From a virus (Duplodnaviria; Caudoviricetes): a stretch of 57,479 nt of DNA. A program made the position numbers and the translations under genes. Below are positions 1-49,293 of this stretch, in pieces. How positions within the stretch are numbered: the first letter of the stretch is position 1; each line of letters begins with the position of its first letter. Below the pieces are notes generated by a model that saw only the letters and a list, made by a program, of their open reading frames with translations, was not told the origin of the DNA and made no database searches. Where the stretch lies: positions 1 through 57,479 of the IMG/VR virus record IMGVR_UViG_3300036790_000341; one strand, written 5' to 3'.

Positions 1-6
1 CCCAGA

Positions 7-36
7 CTTGACAGGTGGGCAAGATGGTGGGGTAAT
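7..36 (+). promoter_or_regulatory. Promoter/operator: TTGACA -35 inside the 17-bp pseudo-palindrome CTTGACAGGTGGGCAAG
   Basis: TTGACA at 8-13, weak -10 GGTAAT after 17 nt; motif recurs at 18678, 19055, 49199, 56498. Confidence 0.6.
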
Positions 37-44
37 GGGGGCAA

Positions 45-128
45 GCCTTTCGAGCTCGGCGGAACGAGCACCGGCCCCACATCCCCGGGGGCCGGAAGGA
101 GTCGGTTCAACCCCGGCGCAAGGCACCA
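45..128 (+). ncRNA. tRNA-like RNA with enlarged anticodon arm and encoded CCA
   Basis: Acceptor GCCTTTC/GCAAGGC, D arm GCTC/GAGC, T arm GTCGG-TTCAACC-CCGGC, 3' ACCA; anticodon arm is an 8-bp stem with a 9-nt loop. Confidence 0.7.
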
Positions 129-171
129 GGCCGGTCCCGCGGACCGGTCGAAGGGGACGCGATAGCGACCC

Positions 172-255
172 TGGGACCTGGTGTAACGGCAGCACGCCCC
201 GCAGGGCCCCGGCCCGTTGGGGGAGGTGTCCGGTTCGAGTCCGGGCGGTCCACGA
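172..255 (+). ncRNA. tRNA-like RNA (tRNA-Gln-like D arm) without a canonical anticodon loop
   Basis: TGGTGTAACGGCAGCAC D arm, TCCGG-TTCGAGT-CCGGG T arm, GGACC/GGTCC acceptor pairing; anticodon arm is a long GC hairpin; ends ACGA, not CCA. Confidence 0.65.
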
Positions 256-294
256 CAGAGCACGGCCGACGCGACGACGAAGAGGTCGAACCCC

Positions 295-483
295 ATGATG
301 ATGAAGATGACCGTCCACGAGCTGGACCGGATCGCCGAGCTGGTGCACCTGCAGGCCGACACCCTGGCCGAGGAGGGCGACCTCGAGGCCGCGGCGCCGG
401 CGGCGAACCTCGCCGCGCGGCTGGACCAGGTGCGCGAGTCCGGGCGCCGGCGCGGCACGGACGTCCCCGTCCTGGTCGTGTGA
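295..483 (+). CDS. Hypothetical protein (62 aa)
   Basis: GAAGAGG upstream of ATG 295; GC3-rich codons; upstream ORF extension overlaps the tRNA-like RNA. Confidence 0.7.
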   Translation: MMMKMTVHELDRIAELVHLQADTLAEEGDLEAAAPAANLAARLDQVRESGRRRGTDVPVLVV

Positions 484-498
484 CACGAGGGCCGTACT

Positions 499-548
499 GA
501 ACGCACCGACGCCATGACCACTGATGCGGTCATGGCGTCGGTGCGTTC
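499..548. terminator. Bidirectional terminator-like hairpin
   Basis: Perfect 21-bp inverted repeat GAACGCACCGACGCCATGACC between converging genes. Confidence 0.8.
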
Positions 549-569
549 GCGCTTGCCGGGCGCGGCCTG

Positions 570-878
570 CTACCTGAGGTCCTTCTCCTCGGTGCCCTGG
601 TAGCGGGCGCGGGCCTGGGCCGAGACCTGGTCGGCGATGTGCCAGTACCGGTTGAGCCGGTCGTCCTCGCGGGCCTGGCGGCTCGAGAGGTACCGGACCG
701 CGGCGGTGATCAGGATGCTGGGGTCGGTCTCGGTGTTGCGCTGGTGGGCCATGATCGCGTAGATCATGGAGGCCGGGAGGGCGCCGCGGGCGCCGGACGC
801 GGCGAGCCACGCCAGGGCGTCGGCGAGCTGCCGCGACGGCGTCGGCAGCCCCGGCTCCATCTCCCGGAAGTCGGTCAA
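570..878 (-). CDS. Hypothetical protein
   Basis: TTG start overlapping upstream TGA; protein-like composition from LTDFREMEP onward. Confidence 0.6.
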   Translation of the reverse strand: MTDFREMEPGLPTPSRQLADALAWLAASGARGALPASMIYAIMAHQRNTETDPSILITAAVRYLSSRQAREDDRLNRYWHIADQVSAQARARYQGTEEKDLR

Positions 879-1378
879 GGACGGCGCCCGTACTCGCGGA
901 CGTACACCGCGGCCAGCGCGAGGACCGCGGCCTGGATGCACGGATACTTCTCCGCACGCACCTGCCCGAGGGCGGCTTCCTCGATCTGGTCGAGGTTCTC
1001 GGCTGTGGAGAGCCAGCAGCCGAGCTCGAGGGCCTCGGTGTCGCCGATCGTACGGTCCTGGGCGCGGGCGTACCTGCGGCCCTTCGCGATCAGGCTGTTC
1101 GAGCCCGGGGCCGTGACCGCGGCCTCGGCCAGCGGCGCGTAGGCGTCGATCCACTTGCGCACCCACTGCGAGAAGTCCGGGGGGCCGGGCGGGTCGAGGA
1201 ACGGGGCGGTGGGGTGCGGGATCGCCGGACGCGTCTGCGCTACGGCGCCCGGGTTCCGGAATTCGGACCCGGGAGCGGGTTCCGGAAGGACTTCGGTGAC
1301 GCGCTCGGGGATCAGCGCAGCCGCCTCGTCGCCGTCGATGGCGGTCATCAGCTCGGTGTTGCCGTCCTTGACGCTCAT
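875..1378 (-). CDS. Hypothetical protein
   Basis: ATG 1378 in ATGA overlap; operon tiling. Confidence 0.65.
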   Translation of the reverse strand: MSVKDGNTELMTAIDGDEAAALIPERVTEVLPEPAPGSEFRNPGAVAQTRPAIPHPTAPFLDPPGPPDFSQWVRKWIDAYAPLAEAAVTAPGSNSLIAKGRRYARAQDRTIGDTEALELGCWLSTAENLDQIEEAALGQVRAEKYPCIQAAVLALAAVYVREYGRRP

Positions 1379-1605
1379 GCCAGGATCACCTCTACCCAGT
1401 CGAGTTCCGGACTGTCCGGATGGACGTGCCACGTGGTGGCCTTCACGTCGTGCGGGACGCCGCGCACGGACACGGCCGAGCCGGCCGCGGGCGCCGGGGC
1501 AGTGAATAATGTGGCGGCAGCCGCGCCGTCGGCACCGGGCCGGGCGAACCGCATGACGACCCTGACCGGTTCGGCGTCGTCCTCGGCCTCGTACTCGAAC
1601 CTCAC
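1375..1605 (-). CDS. Hypothetical protein
   Basis: GTGA overlap with upstream gene. Confidence 0.6.
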   Translation of the reverse strand: MRFEYEAEDDAEPVRVVMRFARPGADGAAAATLFTAPAPAAGSAVSVRGVPHDVKATTWHVHPDSPELDWVEVILA

Positions 1606-1979
1606 GGCAGGTACTCGGTCCAGCCGCACGCGAGCATCAGCGGCAGCGGGTCGCCGTCGAACCCGGTGAACCAGGGCCTGCTGTACCGGCTGCTCGGCGC
1701 GCCGGCCGACCTGGTGTTGAAGTGCTCGAGCAGCGGGCCCTGCGGGTCGACGTGGATGCCGGGCAGCTCCAGGTTGGCGGTGCCGGCGAAGTTCCAGTAC
1801 CGGCGCTTCACGTCGACCATCGGGCCGGCGCCGTGCCCCTCCTCGCGGTACAGCTCGATACAGGCCGTCTCGTCACCGCCGGGGATCGCGCCCATCTCGA
1901 CCTCGCGCACCAGCAGCACGCCGAACGAGCCGAAACCGCTGGCGCCGTGGGTGACGGTGCACCACTGCTTGACCTTCAC
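1602..1979 (-). CDS. Hypothetical protein
   Basis: GAGGAG RBS, GTGA overlap. Confidence 0.7.
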   Translation of the reverse strand: MKVKQWCTVTHGASGFGSFGVLLVREVEMGAIPGGDETACIELYREEGHGAGPMVDVKRRYWNFAGTANLELPGIHVDPQGPLLEHFNTRSAGAPSSRYSRPWFTGFDGDPLPLMLACGWTEYLP

Positions 1980-2608
1980 CGGTACTCCTCGTGGTGCGGC
2001 CAGATGAACGGCATGACTTCCGGCGACGAGGCGAGGTGGTCGCGCTCGCGGCGCATCAGGTACTCGTGGACGGCCTTCGCGTTGAGCGCGTCGCTGAGCG
2101 CGTTGTGCTCAGGCCCGACCAGCGGCACCGGCGGCTCGCTCAGGTCACAGCATGTTCTGGCCGCTTCCTGCTGGATGTCGAAGGTGGCCATGGGGAATCC
2201 GTCGGGCAGATCGGCCATCCGGCCGAACAGTTGCGCGTAGACCACGTGGTCGTAGGCCGAGAAATCGGCCCACAGCTGGGGCGACGGGGTGGCCGCGATG
2301 AAGTCTTTGACACGGCGCGCGATCTCGGGGCGGTGGTGCACGGCGGCGCGCAGGTAGTCCGGGTGCTTCTTGTCCCACTCCCAGGCCCACCGGTAGCCGA
2401 ATGAGTCCCTACCGCGGTCCCACATCCGGATCGGGAGGTGGGCGGCGACGTTCTCGCGCAGCCACGTGTCGTTGACCGTGCGGGAGATGGCGCCGTGGTC
2501 GGTGTTGACGAGATACAGGCTGTCGCCGTCCTCTCGGACCATGCCGATCGACAGCAGCTCGATGACGTGGCCGTCTTCCACGAATTCTGAATCCACGTAG
2601 ATCCGCAT
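1976..2608 (-). CDS. 3'-5' exoribonuclease, Rv2179c/RNase AS-like (DEDDh)
   Basis: YVDSEFVEDG..ELLSIGMVREDG, WLRENV, LWADFSAYDHV..QLFG.M..LP, HNALSDA. Confidence 0.85.
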   Translation of the reverse strand: MRIYVDSEFVEDGHVIELLSIGMVREDGDSLYLVNTDHGAISRTVNDTWLRENVAAHLPIRMWDRGRDSFGYRWAWEWDKKHPDYLRAAVHHRPEIARRVKDFIAATPSPQLWADFSAYDHVVYAQLFGRMADLPDGFPMATFDIQQEAARTCCDLSEPPVPLVGPEHNALSDALNAKAVHEYLMRRERDHLASSPEVMPFIWPHHEEYR

Positions 2609-2853
2609 CAGCCTGTTTCCACCCATTTCTTCAGTTCGTCGATGGAGCACTGGGCGATGGTGCCCAGGCAGGCTGTGAGCCTGCCGATCAGGATCGCCGT
2701 CTCCTTGGGGCCCAGGCGCGCCTTCACGGTGTGGCGCCCGGTGTGGCGGTCGTGGTAGGTCAGGGAGAGTTGAGTCTCGAGGGTGTCGGGCAGCAGGTCG
2801 ACCAGGATGTCGCCGAGCGCGGCGGCCGCCTCTTCGGGTGCGTCGGCGCTCAC
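2608..2853 (-). CDS. Hypothetical protein
   Basis: GTGA overlap; operon tiling. Confidence 0.6.
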   Translation of the reverse strand: MSADAPEEAAAALGDILVDLLPDTLETQLSLTYHDRHTGRHTVKARLGPKETAILIGRLTACLGTIAQCSIDELKKWVETG

Positions 2854-3176
2854 GGTGCGCCCCCGGCCTTCATGGTGATCTTGTAGGGTGCCGGGCGGCC
2901 GGCGCGCAGCCGCAGGGTCAGCGGCCCGTACTCGCCGTGCACGTACTCGGCGCTCCGGTTGACCGCCCTGGCCGGCGGGTAGCCGGTGCTGTTGCACAGG
3001 GCGAGGCGAGGGCCGTCCTGGGTGTCCACGACGGCCCAGTCGTCGCCGGCTGTGTCGGTCCACCGGTCGTCGAGCCGCGGCTTGGACATGCCGAGGTCGA
3101 CGGGGATGGGGCGCGACACGGGGCCGGCCGGATCGGTGTCCACGTACATCACTCTTCCCTGGGTGAAGGTGCCCAC
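2850..3176 (-). CDS. Hypothetical protein
   Basis: ORF tiling; alternative ATG at 3149. Confidence 0.6.
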   Translation of the reverse strand: MGTFTQGRVMYVDTDPAGPVSRPIPVDLGMSKPRLDDRWTDTAGDDWAVVDTQDGPRLALCNSTGYPPARAVNRSAEYVHGEYGPLTLRLRAGRPAPYKITMKAGGAP

Positions 3177-4785: not shown

Positions 4786-4998
4786 CTACTGGCCGAGGGT
4801 GCGCAGTGCCTGCTGGGGTGTGACGCAGGCGAGCAGCTCGTGCAGGATGCCCTTGGGGATGTCGTAGCGGATCGCTTCATCCTCGGGGAAGAACGATGCG
4901 CTGTTGATGCGGCCGATGATCCGGGTGCTGCAGATGTGGACGCGTCCGACGCCGGTCTTGGTCAGGTTGTCGTGGTGGTGGGTGAGCCGGTGGTACAT
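4786..4998 (-). CDS. Hypothetical protein
   Basis: TGATG overlap, GGAG RBS. Confidence 0.6.
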   Translation of the reverse strand: MYHRLTHHHDNLTKTGVGRVHICSTRIIGRINSASFFPEDEAIRYDIPKGILHELLACVTPQQALRTLGQ

Positions 4999-5384
4999 CA
5001 GTCGTCTCCGTCGTCGGGGTCGCCCTTGGTTTCGGGGTGCAGGTCGAGGCCCAGGTCGATGGCGATCGCGCGCACGGCCGTATGGGCGTCGGTGTTCCCC
5101 GCGATCCACTGCTCGGCCAGGGCCCGGATCTTGACCTTCTGCAAGGCGGTGATGGGCTCCGGGTGACTGGTGTCGCCCCGGGGGCCGTCCGGGATGGCAC
5201 CGCGCACCCGCAGGCGTTGGACGACCTTCACGTCCTGGCCGAAGGAGGCGCACCACAGCTTGGCGTCCATGGCGCCCGGGTCGAGCTGCTCGACCTGCCG
5301 GGCGAACGCCAGCACGTCGTTCAAGGTGATGCCGCGCGAGTCCCCGGCCTCGACCGTGTACTGGGCTCCTGTGGATGCGGTCAT
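4998..5384 (-). CDS. Hypothetical protein
   Basis: AAGGGA RBS; ORF tiling. Confidence 0.65.
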   Translation of the reverse strand: MTASTGAQYTVEAGDSRGITLNDVLAFARQVEQLDPGAMDAKLWCASFGQDVKVVQRLRVRGAIPDGPRGDTSHPEPITALQKVKIRALAEQWIAGNTDAHTAVRAIAIDLGLDLHPETKGDPDDGDD

Positions 5385-6697: not shown

Positions 6698-8407
6698 TTA
6701 GCTCACCGTGTCCTCGGGATCGGCCGCAGCGCCAACTGCGGTACCGATGAAACTCGCGATCAGGGTCGCCAGGTGGCTGTCGAACCCTGCGATGTTCAAG
6801 ACGCCCCCGTCCTGCGGATCGACGACCTGGTAGCCGTTGGCGGTGGTCGCGGCCACCACCACCCGGGCCGCGGGATTCACGACGCGCCGGTAGTCGCGCA
6901 GGACCGCGGACGGGTGGCCGCCGGCCCAGGTCACGTTGTCCGTGATCAGCACGAAGCCGTCCACGTGCAGCCGATTCGCCAGAGCCCAGGCGATCGGGGA
7001 GCCGATGTCGGTGCCGCCTCCGGTGTGCGGCAGGTTGAACACCTCGGACAGGGACATGTCCTCGCGCAGCTTGGACGCCAGGACCTCGGTGTCGAACTCG
7101 ACCGGCCACACGCCGGCCGAGCCGTGGGTGCGCATCAGGATCTGCGCCACCGCGCTGCCGACGTGGTAGGCCGAGCCCAGCATGGAGCCGCCGGAGACGA
7201 CCTGGTTTCCCATGGAGCCGGACTTGTCGACCGCGACCACGAGCTTGGCGTGGTAGTTCTCGGCCACGGCGAACGACAGGTTGTAGGCAGCGTTGAGTGC
7301 AGTGACGACTTCCGGAACCGGGGTCCAGGTGCGCAGCGGGGCGTTCGGGTTGGGCTGCGCCCGGCCGGACTCGTAGACCTTCAGGGCGAGCAGCAGGTCG
7401 AACGGGTGGATGCGGGCGCGGTACAGCGCCGCCTGATCGGTCAGGCGAGCCGCGACGCGGCCGTTGGACTGCTTGAACGGGCCGAGGGCGCCGTTCTGCG
7501 TCATCCGGGACAGGTTGCGGATCAGCGCAGTCAGCCCCAGGTGCGGGACCAGGGCCTCCCAGACCTCCGGGTGCTTCAGGACGGCGTCGGGCAGGAACTC
7601 CCACGGGACGCCGTACAGGTTGATCGCGCGCACGGCCTTGGCCGGGGTGTCGGCGAGCTGCGCCTCGTGGAACGCCTTGGCGTTCGGCAGCAGCCTGCCG
7701 GCGTGTTCGGGGGTCGTCTTGCCGACCGCTAGGGCGAACAGGACCTCTTCGGCCTCGTTGCGCGGCCGCGGCCGGGCCACGCGCAGCAGGTCTCCGGGCT
7801 TGAACGGCTCGCCGTCGCCGGTCTTGCGGGCACGGGACTTCAGCAGCCGGTAGGCGACGGCGTCCGGGTTGTCCTGGATGAACCAGTTCGTCCAGGCGCG
7901 GCGCACGACCGGGCTGCTGTTGCCCGAGCGTCCGGTGCGGCCCGACGGCTTGCCCTTCAAGTTCTTGTAGTAGCCGAAGAGCCGGGCCAGGTGGTCGGTG
8001 GTGCGGGCGACCATGTGGCATGCGCCGGCCGCGGCCTGCCGGGTCGCCAGGTCCTCGGATGCCAGGGCGGCCGCGAGGACGAACAGGGCCGGCTGGTTCC
8101 TCGGCGCGCGGGCCGGGCGCGCGGTGGAGACCTCGACGGCGAGCCGCACGGCGCGGACACCGTCGGCCGCGAGCGCGTCGCGCACCACCTGCACGTTGGC
8201 GTAGGTGTGCTCGCGCTCGCCGACGCAGTAGGCGCCGCCCTCGGTGCCGAGGATCAGGAAGTCCGCCAGGCGCGTCCACACGTCCTTCGCGAAGACATAC
8301 CCGCCGCCTTCGTTGCGGACCATCTCCGTCTCGCGGCCCGGGATCGGGTTCGTCGCCGGTGTACTGGCGGGGCGGTAGTCGGACAGCGGATCGTTGGTCT
8401 GGGCCAT
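6698..8407 (-). CDS. rsr: Ro60/TROVE-domain RNA-binding protein with C-terminal vWA domain (569 aa)
   Basis: NEGGGYVF, FLILGTEGGAY, ALIRNLSRMT, ARIHPF, MIDAS VDKSGSM, GGTD, ITDN, AGFDS; AGGAG RBS before ATG 8407. Confidence 0.95.
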   Translation of the reverse strand: MAQTNDPLSDYRPASTPATNPIPGRETEMVRNEGGGYVFAKDVWTRLADFLILGTEGGAYCVGEREHTYANVQVVRDALAADGVRAVRLAVEVSTARPARAPRNQPALFVLAAALASEDLATRQAAAGACHMVARTTDHLARLFGYYKNLKGKPSGRTGRSGNSSPVVRRAWTNWFIQDNPDAVAYRLLKSRARKTGDGEPFKPGDLLRVARPRPRNEAEEVLFALAVGKTTPEHAGRLLPNAKAFHEAQLADTPAKAVRAINLYGVPWEFLPDAVLKHPEVWEALVPHLGLTALIRNLSRMTQNGALGPFKQSNGRVAARLTDQAALYRARIHPFDLLLALKVYESGRAQPNPNAPLRTWTPVPEVVTALNAAYNLSFAVAENYHAKLVVAVDKSGSMGNQVVSGGSMLGSAYHVGSAVAQILMRTHGSAGVWPVEFDTEVLASKLREDMSLSEVFNLPHTGGGTDIGSPIAWALANRLHVDGFVLITDNVTWAGGHPSAVLRDYRRVVNPAARVVVAATTANGYQVVDPQDGGVLNIAGFDSHLATLIASFIGTAVGAAADPEDTVS

Positions 8408-8532: not shown

Positions 8533-8608
8533 TGGCTGCCGCGGCAAGATTCGAACTTGCAACCAATGACTTAACAAGACACTGCTCGGCCAGTTGAGCT
8601 ACACGGCA
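8533..8608 (-). tRNA. tRNA-Asn (GTT), CCA encoded
   Basis: 76-nt cloverleaf TGCCGTG TA GCTC AACTGGCC GAGC A GTGTC TTGTTAA GTCAT TGGTT GCAAG TTCGAAT CTTGC CGCGGCA G CCA; one T-T mismatch in anticodon stem. Confidence 0.9.
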
Positions 8609-8622
8609 TCCGTGGGACGGAG

Positions 8623-8760
8623 GGCCGGGCGGGTCAAGGTGGTGGCGACCGGTATATAAGTGCTTTGCCAATTAAGCTACGCCCCTGCGGGCGACGGGAC
8701 TCGAACCCGCAACACTCTCTTACTAGGAGATAACCGACTGCCGTTCAACTCGCCCGGACC
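8623..8760 (-). ncRNA. yrlA: YrlA-type Y RNA (long terminal stem plus circularly permuted tRNA-like domain)
   Basis: Termini pair (CCGGGCG/CGCCCGG); T arm GCGGG-TTCGAGT-CCCGT precedes looped acceptor stem CGCCC-GCAG-GGGCG and D arm TAGCTTAATTGGCAAAGC; adjacent to ro60. Confidence 0.9.
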
Positions 8761-8780
8761 GAAGTCCAGGGTGGTGCTGT

Positions 8781-8848
8781 GCTCCCGGGCGAGCAGTGCG
8801 TGACCGCGGGGATCAGCCAGATAACCCACGGTCGTTCAGCTCGGAAGC
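8781..8848 (-). ncRNA. Short Y-RNA-like hairpin RNA 2 (~68 nt)
   Basis: GCTTCCG/CGGGAGC and GACCGTGGG/CCCGCGGTC stems; shares CGAGCTGAACG..GGTTATCT with YrlA. Confidence 0.7.
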
Positions 8849-8891
8849 CGGTGGTGCAACCCGTGGCACGAGGCGCCCGGGTGGTGGAGAC

Positions 8892-8959
8892 GATCGGGCG
8901 AAGGGAAGAAGCAGCGGGAGGAATCACCAGAAGATAACCCGCTGCCGTTCAGCTCGATC
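8892..8959 (-). ncRNA. Short Y-RNA-like hairpin RNA 1 (~68 nt)
   Basis: GATCG/CGATC and GCAGCGGG/CCCGCTGC stems; same 5' motif; starts at predicted TSS. Confidence 0.7.
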
Positions 8960-8967
8960 TGGAGAAC

Positions 8968-8997
8968 AACCTACCCGCGGAATTGCGCGGGTGTCAA
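8968..8997 (-). promoter_or_regulatory. Housekeeping-sigma promoter for the Y RNA/tRNA/ro60 operon
   Basis: TTGACA-N18-TAGGTT, with -10 ending 7-8 nt before RNA 1. Confidence 0.8.
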
Positions 8998-9503
8998 GCC
9001 GTATTTCGTGTTGGCGCCCCCGGGGCGTCTGCGTGCCGGTCCGAGCCGCCGGGGTCGCGGAACTCGCGCTCGGGCAGCGGCTGCCCGCTGGCCAGCGCCC
9101 ACCACCCGGCGCAGACCATCGCACCGAGCGGGAGACCGTTGTCGAGGTTCGCGGCCGAGACGTAGCCGTCGTCCTGCCGGAACAGCCCGTGGTGGCAGTA
9201 GAACGGCTGCGTCGCGCCCGGCGCGGTGGCATGCTCGGCCTCGGGCGACCCGGGCCGGTAAGCGCAGTCCACGCACGGGGCGCGCATCACGGCCGGCGGC
9301 GTGGGGGCGCGGGTGATCTCGCCTTCTTCCCAGCCGCGCACGTCGTCGGTCAGGCCGTAGCCGTGGCAGTTCATGCAGCGTTCGCCCTCCGACCAGGACC
9401 CGCTTCCTTTGCAGTAGGGGCACACGAACGGGTAGAAGGTGACAGTGGAGGTGTTCGGTGTCGGGCCACCACAGAAGCGGATCTGGGGCATCTCATCGGT
9501 CAC
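8994..9503 (-). CDS. Cys-rich zinc-finger protein
   Basis: CPYCKGSG, CMNCHGYG, CVDCAYRPGS, FYCH, CAGW. Confidence 0.7.
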   Translation of the reverse strand: MTDEMPQIRFCGGPTPNTSTVTFYPFVCPYCKGSGSWSEGERCMNCHGYGLTDDVRGWEEGEITRAPTPPAVMRAPCVDCAYRPGSPEAEHATAPGATQPFYCHHGLFRQDDGYVSAANLDNGLPLGAMVCAGWWALASGQPLPEREFRDPGGSDRHADAPGAPTRNTA

Positions 9504-37781: not shown

Positions 37782-38107
37782 TTGACGTACGTCAAGTCCA
37801 ACCGCAAGTCAGGCGTATGCACCGGCGACCCCAACACCGACACCGCCGCAATCGAATACTTCCTCCCCGTCTGCTCATCCAAGATCCGATCCGTGTCCAG
37901 CACATCCGTCCCCGCCGGCAACCGACACGTCGTATACCGGTACACGCGCATGTCCTGCGCCACCGCATCCACCCCGGTCCGAGACCGCTCCATCACCGAC
38001 GCCGGAATCCCCGTATACACCGCCGTATCCGCATCCACCGTGTCCCCGGCCGGCGTCACCGTCGTGCCGCGCAGGATACTCACCGTCGTCGTCGGAAAAG
38101 CCATCAC
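37778..38107 (-). CDS. Head-closure/head-tail joining protein
   Basis: TTVSILRG...GD, GTDV...DRI.D..TG..Y.I; size and position. Confidence 0.7.
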   Translation of the reverse strand: MMAFPTTTVSILRGTTVTPAGDTVDADTAVYTGIPASVMERSRTGVDAVAQDMRVYRYTTCRLPAGTDVLDTDRILDEQTGRKYSIAAVSVLGSPVHTPDLRLDLTYVN

Positions 38108-38514
38108 GCCGAATCACCACCGATCTGGAACGAATGCGTCTCCATCCACGGCCCGTTCGCACTCGGCACATGACCCACCCACGCCAACACCCGGCCCTTG
38201 TGCATGCGCTCCCGGGCGATATACCGGTGATGCCCATCGATGATCACATACTGCGGGCTGCCACCCACCTGCACCGCCACAATCGGCTCAGCCGACCCGT
38301 CCTGCCACTTCTGAACCTCACGATCCACATTCTGCGGCTGACTCGCCGCCGCCCACGACGACTGGCCAGCCGTATCGAACCGATCCAGACCCACCTTCCG
38401 CACCGGCTCCCACACCGCCGACCTCACCCAGCCGATCGCCGACGCCGGAAACCGCTTCACCAACTGCGCATACACCTGCTGACGCGCAGCCAAAGCACCA
38501 GCCGACTTGGACAT
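38104..38514 (-). CDS. ParB/Srx-like domain protein
   Basis: EPIVAV...YVIIDGHHRY.A. Confidence 0.75.
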   Translation of the reverse strand: MSKSAGALAARQQVYAQLVKRFPASAIGWVRSAVWEPVRKVGLDRFDTAGQSSWAAASQPQNVDREVQKWQDGSAEPIVAVQVGGSPQYVIIDGHHRYIARERMHKGRVLAWVGHVPSANGPWMETHSFQIGGDSA

Positions 38515-38756: not shown

Positions 38757-39452
38757 TCAACTCCAGAGATCGGGGTGCTTGCGCGCCAGCAACTGCACAG
38801 TCTCGCCGTGACGCTCCATGCGACGGCTCTCCTCATGCAACTGGCCCTCACGCATACGGTAGAAGTACACCGGCTCCTCAACCACCTCATACCGGCCCAG
38901 CCCCAGCTTGAACAGCGACACCCAGAAATCCCAATCCTCCGCCGACCCGAAGGTGCCCGGCAGGCTCGTATCCGTGCTGTACCCGCCGACCGCCTGCCAC
39001 ACCTCCGACCGGATCAACGCCATGTTCACCATCGGCGGCCACTCCCGGAAGTCCCCCAGCACGGCGCCCCGCTTGGACACCTGCACCGTGTTCAGACCAC
39101 CCACCTGCTGCGCGTACACCACGCAGAACGACAGGCCCGGATCAGCCTCCAGCCGAGCCACACACCGCTCGATGCAGTCCTCACGCAGCCAGTCATCGCT
39201 GTTCGCCACGAACACGGCGTCACAACCATCCCCGATAGCAGCAGTGGCGCAGTCGTTCAACGTCAACGGCCAACCCATGCGCGCGGCATGAGACGCCGCC
39301 AGACGCGCACCCGCCAGCTCCGCCGTGCGGTCCGTAGACGCGTCATCCACCACATACCCCAGGGCCGGATAGGTCTGGCGCGCGACCGAGCCCAACATCT
39401 CACCCAGATACGGCTCGACGTTGTAGGCGGGCAGCAGAACCCCGACTCTCAC
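38757..39452 (-). CDS. GT2 glycosyltransferase
   Basis: LPAYNVEPYL...L.SV..QTY, VVDDASTD.T, NSDD, VGGY, EDWDFW, FYR. Confidence 0.9.
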   Translation of the reverse strand: MRVGVLLPAYNVEPYLGEMLGSVARQTYPALGYVVDDASTDRTAELAGARLAASHAARMGWPLTLNDCATAAIGDGCDAVFVANSDDWLREDCIERCVARLEADPGLSFCVVYAQQVGGLNTVQVSKRGAVLGDFREWPPMVNMALIRSEVWQAVGGYSTDTSLPGTFGSAEDWDFWVSLFKLGLGRYEVVEEPVYFYRMREGQLHEESRRMERHGETVQLLARKHPDLWS

Positions 39453-47196: not shown

Positions 47197-47475
47197 TCAG
47201 TACATCTTCGACGGTGCGGGGGTGCCCTTCGGCGGGTCGACGGTGCGCTGCCCCGGCGCGACGACGTGCCCGGCCGGCGACGGCCCGGCCATGTCGGACG
47301 TCGCCTTGGGCCGGCCGAGCGTGGCGCCCATGCCCGCATCGGCGCCCTTGGCGGTCGAGCTCGTGATGTCGGGGTGCCGGGCGCCCGGCGCGAGGACGGG
47401 ACCGCCCTGGCCGGCGCCGTGCAGGAGGTCGGCGTCGCTGGGGGCGGACTTCGAGTATCCGTCGGCGGCCATCAT
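47197..47475 (-). CDS. Hypothetical protein
   Basis: ATGA overlap with portal stop. Confidence 0.6.
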   Translation of the reverse strand: MMAADGYSKSAPSDADLLHGAGQGGPVLAPGARHPDITSSTAKGADAGMGATLGRPKATSDMAGPSPAGHVVAPGQRTVDPPKGTPAPSKMY

Positions 47476-49109: not shown

Positions 49110-49198
49110 CCGGACACCTCTTTCGTCTGCGCATATTCGTACATGGCCAATTGAACCACCTGGGGAGGCCTGTGGCCACGGGCGACCCGACACGCCTA

Positions 49199-49228
49199 CT
49201 TGACAGGGGGGCAAGATGGGTGTGTGAT
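49199..49228 (+). promoter_or_regulatory. Operator/-35 motif copy CTTGACAGGGGGGCAAG
   Basis: Same motif as 7-23; TGTGAT 17 nt after TTGACA. Confidence 0.7.
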
Positions 49229-49293
49229 GGTCCACGGAAACACCAGCCGGAACCGATCCGGCCCGGGCCACACCGACAACCCTGGAGACGACC

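What the first reader, a model, noticed from the sequence alone, without database searches (positions are those of the whole stretch)
45..255. Tandem tRNA-like RNAs with intact elbow but remodelled anticodon arms
Seen: two ~84-nt cloverleaves behind a promoter motif, separated by a hairpin at 129-149. D and T arms are recognisable, but each anticodon arm carries about 8-9 extra nt that extend the stem and remove the 7-nt loop. The first ends in CCA; the second ends in ACGA. The two sequences are unrelated, yet have the same kind of change with pairing preserved, which argues against simple decay. Inference: non-decoding tRNA mimics, for example decoys for anti-phage tRNA nucleases or tRNA-modifying toxins, or partners of the Ro60 system.
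Basis: partly seen in the sequence, partly recalled or inferred. Interest (0 to 1): 0.7.

Follow-up and report, generated by a model that had tools for sequence, protein, structure and literature searches.

The report
Two anticodon-less tRNA-shaped phage RNAs
A soil phage carries, behind one of its own promoters, two tRNA-derived RNAs whose anticodon loops are replaced by closed hairpins that selection has kept paired, so they look like tRNA mimics that cannot decode; their partner is unknown.

Summary
Positions 45-128 (E1) and 172-255 (E2) are tRNA skeletons whose anticodon arms are 25 and 27 nt long, not 17, and have no 7-nt loop. A hairpin at 129-149 separates them. A TTGACA promoter motif that occurs four times in the window precedes them. 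A skeleton scanner found E1 under strict rules (0 of 100 shuffles gave any hit) and E2 under relaxed rules (2 of 100).

One homologous locus exists, metagenome contig L154, about 90% identical. It keeps both remodelled arms. Across 47 pairs there are 0 broken pairs, 2 compensatory double changes (one in each arm) and 2 one-sided compatible changes. Random substitution gives 0 broken pairs with P=0.003 (E1) and 0.029 (E2). Simple decay is therefore unlikely.

E2 derives from a phage tRNA-Gln type and E1 resembles a tRNA-Arg type. The encoded CCA of E1 is not conserved. Neither element is a Y RNA. The phage does encode Ro60, with its own Y-RNA/YrlA array at 8644-8960, but E1 and E2 lack that array's motif. 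Fifteen related phage contigs lack E1 and E2.

Best reading: non-decoding tRNA mimics acting in trans, partner unknown. No expression data exist. This is a new variant of a known kind.

The parts
8..38 (+). Promoter-like motif: TTGACA, then a conserved GGnGGGCAAG stretch, then TAATGG. Transcription would start at or just before E1 (inference).
   Evidence: Four copies of the 20-nt motif with at most 4 substitutions lie in the window, at 8+, 49200+, 56499+ and 18693-. The motif is conserved in L154. The copy at 49198-49230 is 85% identical. The generic sigma-70 scan found none.
45..128 (+). E1: a tRNA-shaped RNA. It has an acceptor, a D arm and a T arm. Its anticodon arm is 25 nt (8 bp plus a 9-nt loop) instead of 17 nt.
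   Evidence: It folds as a cloverleaf. It passes the strict skeleton scan, where 0 of 100 shuffles gave any hit. The homologue at L154 859-942 folds as a perfect cloverleaf with z -3.89. Of 24 pairs, none is broken and one is compensatory. Model R1 scores 111.6 bits here, and the next unrelated hit is a tRNA-Arg at 53 bits.
129..149 (+). Spacer hairpin H1: 9 bp with a 3-nt loop.
   Evidence: -17.2 kcal/mol. It is kept in L154 through two one-sided compatible changes.
154..171 (+). Spacer hairpin H2: 3 + 3 bp, weak.
   Evidence: One pair (160-165) is broken in L154.
172..255 (+). E2: a tRNA-shaped RNA of tRNA-Gln ancestry. Its 27-nt anticodon arm is a closed rod of 4 bp, an internal loop, 4 bp and a tetraloop.
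   Evidence: It passes the relaxed skeleton scan, where 2 of 100 shuffles gave a hit. Its D arm plus T loop pattern matches 92 IMG/VR stretches; of the 80 held, ARAGORN typed 79 tRNAs, 55 of them as tRNA-Gln. The homologue lies at L154 986-1069. Of 23 pairs, none is broken and one is compensatory.
295..483 (+). Small ORF of 62 aa in the same transcription unit. An AAGAGG ribosome-binding site lies 8 nt upstream.
   Evidence: GC3 is 1.00 and GC1 exceeds GC2. In L154 the differences fall 4, 3 and 11 on codon positions 1, 2 and 3. Three homologues at 92, 74 and 69% identity exist among 5.8 billion proteins. The model is beta-alpha-alpha-beta with pLDDT 91. No family matched.
499..548 (.). A 21-bp inverted repeat (499-519/528-548) between the convergent units; a likely two-way terminator (inference).
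   Evidence: Read from the sequence. The core is conserved in L154 while its flanks have diverged to 62% identity. The terminator scan found none, because there is no T run.

Best explanation
E1 and E2 are two small RNAs derived from phage tRNA genes: E1 from an Arg-like type and E2 from a Gln type. In each, the anticodon stem-loop has been replaced by a longer, closed, GC-rich hairpin.

Shown here:
- They have a tRNA skeleton.
- They have no 7-nt anticodon loop.
- They sit behind a promoter of the phage's own family, ahead of a small ORF and a terminator.
- Their helices, including the remodelled arms, have been kept paired since the split from the one known homologous locus.

Inferred:
- The transcript starts at or just before E1.
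- Host tRNA-processing enzymes (RNase P, 3' trimming, CCA addition) release two stable tRNA-shaped RNAs of about 80 nt.
- These RNAs cannot pair with codons. They act in trans through the acceptor/T-arm/elbow half as mimics that occupy a protein which recognises that half of tRNA.
- The partner is unknown. Candidates are a host toxin or defence enzyme that works on the tRNA acceptor end or elbow, a tRNA-processing or modifying enzyme, or the phage's own Ro60 particle.
For: tRNA skeleton beyond chance:
- The strict T-arm motif occurs 4 times in the window against 0.26 in shuffles.
- E1 passes the strict scan, where 0 of 100 shuffles gave any hit.
- E2 passes the relaxed scan, where 2 of 100 shuffles gave a hit.

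Conservation in L154 (found, aligned):
- E1: of 24 pairs, 21 are identical, 1 is compensatory (74-92, G-C to U-A, inside the arm), 1 is a one-sided compatible change, 1 window mismatch is a C-G pair in L154, and 0 are broken.
- E2: of 23 pairs, 21 are identical, 1 is compensatory (207-212, C-G to A-U, in the inner helix of the new arm), 1 is one-sided, and 0 are broken.
- The terminal loops changed freely.
- Under random placement of the same number of substitutions, 0 broken pairs has P=0.003 for E1 and 0.029 for E2.
- Identity is 88.1% for E1 and 90.6% for E2. It is 82% at ORF third positions (11 of 62 differ), 82-84% in the spacers and 62% around the terminator.
- A 1-nt deletion and a 1-nt insertion inside E2 argue against a protein frame across it.

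Other support:
- The L154 copy of E1 is a perfect cloverleaf (-47.5 kcal/mol, z -3.89, 60% of the ensemble).
- Ancestry from real tRNAs is shown.
- The promoter belongs to a family.
- A relative, G002, has a third example of the same design between tRNA-Met and tRNA-Ile: 7 of 7 acceptor pairs, a canonical D arm, and a rod of about 46 nt (z -2.6).
Against: - There are no expression data.
- Only two sequences exist, so covariation rests on two double changes. The structure was also derived from one of the two sequences.
- E2 alone does not fold better than shuffles (z +0.6; z -1.2 for the L154 copy).
- E2 keeps two acceptor mismatches in both genomes.
- The L154 copy of E2 lost one D-loop G, which weakens the elbow.
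- The CCA of E1 is CCG in L154.
- The unit is absent from 15 of 15 related contigs, 5 of them 94-100% complete, by BLASTN. The same sequence (whole genomes for the 5, the fetched loci for the other 10) also gave no hit to the covariance models. It is therefore young and dispensable for the group.
- No partner protein is identified.
- No Rfam family matches.
Confidence: 0.45

Rival explanations
1. Cis-acting leader. The two tRNA-shaped folds and the hairpins are processing and stabilising punctuation for the small-ORF mRNA. RNase P or RNase Z cuts would define its 5' end, or the stable 5' structures would protect it from 5'-end-dependent decay. The released RNAs would have no role of their own.
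For: One promoter, one terminator and one ORF form a single unit. The leader, spacer hairpins and ribosome-binding site are all conserved. It is established knowledge that tRNA genes can be co-transcribed with mRNAs.
Against: The G002 homologue of the ORF has no tRNA-like leader. A processing signal needs only an acceptor/T-arm minihelix, so this reading does not explain why the long arms are kept paired by compensatory changes.
Confidence: 0.2
2. Recently inactivated tRNA genes (pseudogenes) that have not yet had time to decay and have no function.
For: - They are confined to one narrow lineage.
- E2 has acceptor mismatches, and its L154 copy lost a D-loop G.
- The CCA is not conserved.
- Rod-armed tRNA skeletons also turn up sporadically elsewhere. 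L119 is the clearest among 400 skeletons in 790 kb of other phage DNA.
Against: There are 0 broken pairs of 47 after about 10% divergence, with two compensatory double changes (P=0.003 and 0.029). The elements are more conserved than ORF third positions and the spacers. Two unrelated tRNAs show the same kind of remodelling side by side.
Confidence: 0.15
3. Additional RNA partners or substrates of the phage Ro60 particle. They would be a non-permuted counterpart of YrlA, or would be bound as misfolded-tRNA-like RNAs in the Ro60 cavity.
For: - Ro60 is encoded in the window (TROVE plus vWA_Ro60) and in 5 of 5 near-complete relatives.
- This phage group holds many tRNA-like RNAs around Ro60. One is an unpermuted tRNA-like element without an anticodon arm, directly upstream of Ro60 in G001.
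- YrlA RNAs have a tRNA-like domain (PMC4201824, passages read).
Against: - E1 and E2 lie 6.4 kb from Ro60, on the other strand, with their own promoter.
- They lack the Y-RNA head motif, which occurs only upstream of Ro60: 3 to 4 copies in each of 6 genomes and none in 1-300.
- There is no YrlA hit at E<=10.
- Relatives that have Ro60 lack E1 and E2.
Confidence: 0.12
4. Decoding tRNAs after all. Either the inserts are spliced out, or the odd loops read codons, for example as quadruplet or suppressor tRNAs.
For: ARAGORN in intron mode at a 90% threshold tRNA-Gly(ccc) with a 9-nt intron. In L154, removing 10 nt would leave a C-U-CCC-G-U loop (read).
Against: - That ARAGORN call is one of 55 mostly spurious ones.
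- In the window the same removal leaves G at position 33.
- In E1 no removal of 8 contiguous nt gives U33, in either genome (read).
- E2 has a tRNA-Gln body, not a Gly body.
- From general knowledge, no splicing system for inserts of 8-10 nt in bacterial tRNAs is known.
- The arm is not a bulge-helix-bulge motif.
Confidence: 0.03

Closest known systems
YrlA / bacterial and phage Y RNAs (Rfam RF02553; Chen et al. 2014, PMC4201824, passages read)
   Same: Both are non-decoding RNAs with tRNA-like D and T arms and no anticodon loop, encoded by actinophages that carry Ro60. The window itself has such an RNA at about 8644-8757(-), a YrlA hit of 34.7 bits with E 9e-6.
   Different: YrlA is circularly permuted: its acceptor is closed by a loop and its ends form the Ro60-binding helix. 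It carries the conserved binding motif and lies next to the Ro60 gene. E1 and E2 keep the normal tRNA order with an open acceptor end and a closed anticodon arm. They lack the motif, lie 6.4 kb away on the other strand, and give no YrlA hit.
Ordinary phage-encoded tRNAs, including those with anticodon-loop changes proposed to evade tRNA-targeting defences (PMC10264068; only the search listing and the start of the abstract were seen)
   Same: They share tRNA ancestry, phage promoters and a clustered arrangement. The E2 D arm and T loop are those of a common phage tRNA-Gln type.
   Different: Those tRNAs keep a 7-nt anticodon loop and still decode. E1 and E2 have no such loop and cannot replace a cleaved host tRNA.
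tRNA-like stable RNAs made by tRNA-processing enzymes, such as the two stable RNAs of the phage T4 tRNA cluster and mascRNA (recalled, not checked in any call)
   Same: They are small tRNA-shaped RNAs released from longer transcripts, and they are not used in decoding.
   Different: There is no sequence relation. Those examples were not compared here.
tRNA-like structures at the 3' ends of plant RNA virus genomes (listing only)
   Same: They mimic the acceptor/T-arm half of tRNA.
   Different: Those structures are cis elements of RNA genomes, are built with pseudoknots and are aminoacylated. E1 and E2 are true cloverleaf derivatives in a DNA phage.

Membership tests
Canonical decoding tRNA (Rfam RF00005) | Cloverleaf with a 7-bp acceptor, a D arm with GG, and a T arm with a TTCRANN loop and the G53-C61 pair | tested here: met
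   E1 has 6 of 7 acceptor pairs in the window and 7 of 7 in L154, and passes the strict scan. E2 meets this only under relaxed rules, with 5 of 7 acceptor pairs.
Canonical decoding tRNA (Rfam RF00005) | 17-nt anticodon arm: a 5-bp stem and a 7-nt loop with U33 and a purine at 37 | tested here: not met
   The arms are 25 and 27 nt. E1 has 8 bp and a 9-nt loop. E2 is a rod that ends in a 4-5-nt loop.
Canonical decoding tRNA (Rfam RF00005) | Recognised by standard tRNA detectors | tested here: not met
   ARAGORN at default settings finds none at 45-255 or in L154. The Rfam tRNA model gives no hit at E<=10 in window 1-320 or L154 800-1110.
Canonical decoding tRNA (Rfam RF00005) | Aminoacylation and use on the ribosome | not testable with these tools
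   This needs charging assays.
YrlA / Y RNA | Encoded next to the Ro60 gene | tested here: not met
   Ro60 is at 6698-8404(-). E1 and E2 are at 45-255(+), behind their own promoter. The real array is at 8644-8960(-).
YrlA / Y RNA | Helix formed by the 5' and 3' ends that carries the conserved Ro60-binding motif (GNCGAAN0-1G in PMC4201824) | tested here: not met
   The head motif shared by all 22 array members in 6 genomes does not occur in 1-300.
YrlA / Y RNA | Permuted tRNA-like domain (T arm, then closed acceptor, then D arm), and a score on the Rfam model | tested here: not met
   E1 and E2 have the normal order with an open acceptor. There is no RF02553 hit at E<=10.
YrlA / Y RNA | Binds Ro60 | not testable with these tools
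   This needs a pull-down.
tRNA pseudogene | Uncompensated, random degeneration between homologues | tested here: not met
   0 broken pairs of 47, 2 compensatory double changes, P=0.003 and 0.029. Only two sequences were available.
Intron-containing tRNA | Removing the insert restores a canonical anticodon loop | tested here: not met
   For E1 this is impossible in both genomes. For E2 it works only in L154 and not in the window (read).
Phage attP carrying part of a host tRNA gene | Only the 3' part of a tRNA, identical to a host gene, next to an integrase | tested here: inconclusive
   Both elements are full cloverleaves with a promoter. The 3' half of E1 differs at 5 positions between the two phages. 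No integrase family was found among the roughly 70 ORFs scanned, but a quarter of the genome is missing. The single genome scan used a D-arm pattern, not a 3'-half pattern.

The most novel reading that the evidence does not exclude
E1 and E2 are a phage-made pair of anticodon-less tRNA decoys. They would be a new class of counter-defence or host-takeover RNA that titrates a host protein acting on the acceptor end or elbow of tRNA. Alternatively they would feed the phage's Ro60/Y-RNA machine as a second, non-permuted class of tRNA-mimic partners. The G002 rod-armed cloverleaf and the arm-less tRNA-like RNA beside G001 Ro60 would then be further members of a diversified toolkit of tRNA mimics in Ro60-carrying actinophages.
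Probability: 0.2. Interest if true: 0.8.

Novelty: new variant of a known kind. Interest (0 to 1): 0.55.

Why it matters
Phage tRNAs are currently discussed either as codon supplements or as replacements for host tRNAs cut by defence nucleases. E1 and E2 can do neither, because they have no anticodon loop. Yet selection has kept their tRNA shape and their new closed arms. If they are made and stable, they would show that phages also use tRNA shape alone, in the normal non-permuted topology, alongside the known permuted YrlA mimics found in the same genomes. They would also give a compact cassette of about 560 nt (promoter, two RNAs, small ORF, terminator) in which to look for the partner protein.

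Tried and rejected
Searches that found nothing:
- Megablast and blastn of 1-3000 and 1-300 against 50,697 phage records gave no match.
- BLASTN of 1-560 or 1-900 against 15 related IMG/VR records gave only chance-level hits in the RNA region.
- The E1 pattern found 0 stretches in IMG/VR.
- The small ORF found no relative in JGI metagenomes.
- The small-ORF alignment found no relative in IMG/VR.
- The single Ro60 protein found no close relative in IMG/VR.

RNA runs: no RNA holder was listed. The only run listed is the probable source DNA sample, and read laying was not used.

Uninformative results:
- Folding the whole leader 39-300 gave z -0.25 and a non-cloverleaf minimum-energy structure.
- The generic promoter and terminator scan found nothing in 1-1000.
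- The 9-mer AACGGCAGC shared by the E2 D arm and the Y RNAs occurs 3 times in the window and belongs to a common tRNA-Gln D arm, so it is not evidence of a Ro60 link.
- For the small protein, Pfam, PHROGs, the Atlas and a fold model gave only a generic helical hairpin. No fold search was run.

Readings rejected: splicing, attP, and a protein frame across the RNAs. Reasons are given under the rivals and in the membership test.

Literature: five full-text searches listed no paper on phage tRNA-like RNAs with closed, lengthened anticodon arms. Supplementary tables of PMC4201824, which list phage YrlA candidates, could not be seen.

Full report
What the window is. The window is a whole IMG/VR virus record of 57,479 nt. 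It is linear and about 75% complete, with 68% G+C. Its portal, capsid and scaffold proteins are of the actinophage type, and the nearest named phages infect Streptomyces at 30-40% protein identity. The one sequencing run that holds it is a soil metagenome.

The observation. The sequence at 45-255 is as described.

E1 (45-128) has these parts:
- An acceptor stem with 6 of 7 pairs.
- A D stem-loop, GCTC-GGCGGAAC-GAGC.
- A 25-nt arm with 8 consecutive pairs and a 9-nt loop.
- A 5-nt variable region.
- A T arm with loop TTCAACC.
- A discriminator A followed by CCA.

Alone, E1 folds as exactly this cloverleaf (-40 kcal/mol, z -2.27, 0 of 200 shuffles as good).

E2 (172-255) has these parts:
- U8 and G9.
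- A D arm, GTGT-AACGGCA-GCAC.
- A 27-nt arm made of 4 pairs, an internal loop, 4 pairs and a tetraloop.
- A T arm with loop TTCGAGT.
- A weak acceptor, with 5 of 7 pairs in the tRNA register.

E2's fold energy is no better than that of shuffles (z +0.6). A 9-bp hairpin at 129-149 and a weaker one at 154-171 lie between the two elements.

Standard detectors miss both elements. ARAGORN at default settings finds only tRNA-Asn and one other call at 8.5-8.8 kb. Rfam finds nothing at 1-320, even at E<=10.

More than chance. A strict T-arm motif (5 pairs, G53-C61, TTCRANN loop) occurs 4 times in the window: E1, E2, tRNA-Asn and YrlA. The mean in 100 dinucleotide shuffles is 0.26. I wrote a scanner for the whole tRNA skeleton that lets the anticodon arm have any length. 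Under strict rules E1 was its only hit in the window, and 0 of 100 shuffles gave any hit. Under relaxed rules it finds both E1 and E2, and 2 of 100 shuffles gave a hit.

The promoter motif is also real as a family. TTGACAGGnGGGCAAG-like sites lie at 8(+), 49200(+), 56499(+) and 18693(-), each before genes. The generic sigma-70 scan reports none, because the second hexamer is unusual.

Downstream lies a 62-aa ORF at 295-483. It is coding by composition (GC3 1.00, GC1 above GC2). A 21-bp inverted repeat at 499-548 faces the end of the convergent minus-strand operon.

The one homologue, and what it shows. No match was found in 50,697 phage records, in IMG/VR by pattern, or through the small ORF. 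A degenerate D-arm plus T-loop pattern found a single metagenome contig, L154, of 2,330 nt. L154 has the same unit: promoter, E1, two hairpins, E2, ORF, terminator and the end of the same convergent gene. Overall identity is about 90%. It also shows a divergent gene upstream of the promoter, a region that the window lacks.

The L154 copy of E1 is a perfect cloverleaf (-47.5 kcal/mol, z -3.89). Counting pairs between the two genomes gives:
- E1, 24 pairs: 21 are identical. One changed on both sides and is kept (G74-C92 to U-A, inside the long arm). One changed on one side and is kept. The window's U50.C119 mismatch is a C-G pair in L154. None is broken.
- E2, 23 pairs: 21 are identical. One is compensatory (C207-G212 to A-U, in the inner helix of the new arm). 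One is one-sided. None is broken.
- The loops at the tips of both arms changed freely, and in E2 the loop also changed length.

When the same number of substitutions is placed at random, 0 broken pairs has P=0.003 for E1 and 0.029 for E2.

E1 and E2 are 88% and 91% identical between the two genomes. By comparison, ORF third positions are 82% identical, the spacers 82-84%, and the terminator region 62%.

Caveats:
- There are only two sequences.
- The structure came from one of them.
- The null model is simple.

Two features are not conserved. The CCA of E1 is CCG in L154, and the L154 copy of E2 has lost one of the two D-loop G residues.

Ancestry. The E2 D arm joined to its T loop is a common phage pattern: 92 stretches in IMG/VR match it. 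Of the 80 held, ARAGORN typed 79 tRNAs and called 55 of them tRNA-Gln. E2 also keeps the U1-A72 pair of that type. The E1 D arm recurs in a tRNA-Arg(CCG) in a tRNA cluster of a Ktedonobacterales genome. That tRNA is the best hit of the E1 covariance model outside the two loci, at 53 bits against 112 bits. Both elements therefore started as real tRNAs of different kinds and were remodelled in the same way.

Not decoding, and not spliced. Neither arm offers a 7-nt loop. In E1, removing any 8 contiguous nt cannot give U33 in either genome. In E2, removing 10 nt gives a canonical-looking CCC loop in L154, but the matching removal in the window gives G33 (read). ARAGORN's intron call for E2 is one of 55 mostly spurious calls at a lowered threshold.

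Surroundings and the Ro60 idea. The window encodes a Ro60 homologue at 6698-8404(-), with TROVE and vWA_Ro60 domains. Directly upstream on that strand lie a TTGACA promoter, two Y-RNA-like hairpins, a YrlA (Rfam RF02553, 34.7 bits, E 9e-6, below the gathering score of 69) and tRNA-Asn. Ro60 is common in actinophages; 362 records match. Phage YrlA RNAs are in print (PMC4201824, passages read).

Five of 5 near-complete relatives also encode Ro60. Each has 3 to 4 array RNAs that share a head motif. Across 6 genomes that motif occurs only upstream of Ro60, 22 times in all, and never in window 1-300. E1 and E2 are thus not Y RNAs by sequence, topology or position. Binding to Ro60 cannot be excluded without an experiment.

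Distribution. Fifteen related contigs were found through the portal protein (60-88% identity). None has E1 or E2 by BLASTN of its whole record. The covariance models, run on the five near-complete genomes and the fetched loci of the other ten, found none either. In relatives, the gene that faces the unit in the window is followed by other genes. The G002 homologue of the small ORF has no tRNA-like leader. The unit is therefore specific to one lineage.

The same design recurs, though. G002 has, between tRNA-Met and tRNA-Ile, a cloverleaf with 7 of 7 acceptor pairs, a canonical D arm and a rod of about 46 nt in place of the anticodon arm (z -2.6). G001 has a tRNA-like element without an anticodon arm next to Ro60. 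In 790 kb of other tRNA-rich phage DNA, the strict scanner found 400 skeletons, 386 of them with a 17-nt arm. The rest are mostly long-variable-arm tRNAs, plus one clear rod-armed case, L119.

How it most likely works. The shown points are these:
- The elements derive from tRNAs.
- They cannot decode.
- They sit behind a promoter.
- They are kept under structural constraint.

The rest is inferred:
- They are released by tRNA-processing enzymes.
- They act in trans through the acceptor/T-arm/elbow half as mimics.
- The partner is unknown.

A decoy for anticodon nucleases is unlikely, because the loop those enzymes recognise is gone. Proteins that read the acceptor end or the elbow remain possible. 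The rivals are a cis role as leader punctuation for the small ORF, young pseudogenes, a Ro60 link, and decoding after splicing. Their weights are given in the Rival explanations section.

Novelty. Five full-text searches listed no paper that describes phage tRNA-like RNAs with closed, lengthened anticodon arms. The closest known kind is YrlA. I rate this a new variant of a known kind, of moderate interest. It has no expression evidence, and its comparative support rests on two sequences.

Noticed in passing
window 6698-8404(-) and 8644-9000(-): The window has a Ro60 gene. Directly upstream lie a TTGACA promoter, two Y-RNA-like hairpins (about 8891-8960 and 8786-8846), a YrlA (about 8644-8757; ARAGORN miscalls part of it as tRNA-Thr(agt) at 8687-8756) and tRNA-Asn at 8533-8608. 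All five near-complete relatives have arrays of 3-4 such RNAs.
   Followed up: partly
window 8, 49200, 56499 (+) and 18693 (-): A phage promoter family, TTGACAGGnGGGCAAG, with an unusual second hexamer (TNATGG-like at a spacing of 19). In L154 two such motifs stand back to back upstream of E1, around a hairpin.
   Followed up: partly
L041 18126-18226 (G002 37926-38026): A cloverleaf with a perfect acceptor, D and T arms and an irregular rod of about 46 nt in place of the anticodon arm. It lies between tRNA-Met and tRNA-Ile. It has the same design as E1 and E2 but an unrelated sequence.
   Followed up: partly
L038 7750-7813 (G001 47350-47413): A tRNA-like element with acceptor, D arm, T arm and CCA but no anticodon arm at all. 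It sits immediately upstream of the Ro60 gene, where the window has tRNA-Asn and G003 has tRNA-Asp. Its minimum-energy fold was not a cloverleaf.
   Followed up: partly
G003 4986-5063; G001 about 39170-39300; G004 64859-64970(-); G005 38056-38148(-): Further structured elements that carry a T arm and are not called as tRNAs. In G001 and G003 they follow the same small gene, which ends in GLPWG. The G004 and G005 copies are homologous to each other.
   Followed up: no
window 1976-2650(-): A 3'-5' exoribonuclease of the Rv2179c-like family (PHROG 'RNase H', 1e-44) lies in the same minus-strand operon as Ro60. The assignment of the Pfam Rv2179c-like hit to this ORF is inferred, because the batch scan does not give positions.
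   Followed up: no
L119 (minus strand, positions 9287-9385 of the reverse complement): An unrelated 120-kb IMG/VR phage has a tRNA skeleton with a 46-nt hairpin-rich arm. Rod-armed tRNA look-alikes therefore occur sporadically elsewhere.
   Followed up: no
L155 601-676: A Patescibacteria genome has a tRNA with the E1-type D arm. ARAGORN gives it an undetermined anticodon.
   Followed up: no
window 8533-8608(-): The one ordinary tRNA (Asn, GTT) has 54% G+C in a 68% G+C genome.
   Followed up: no
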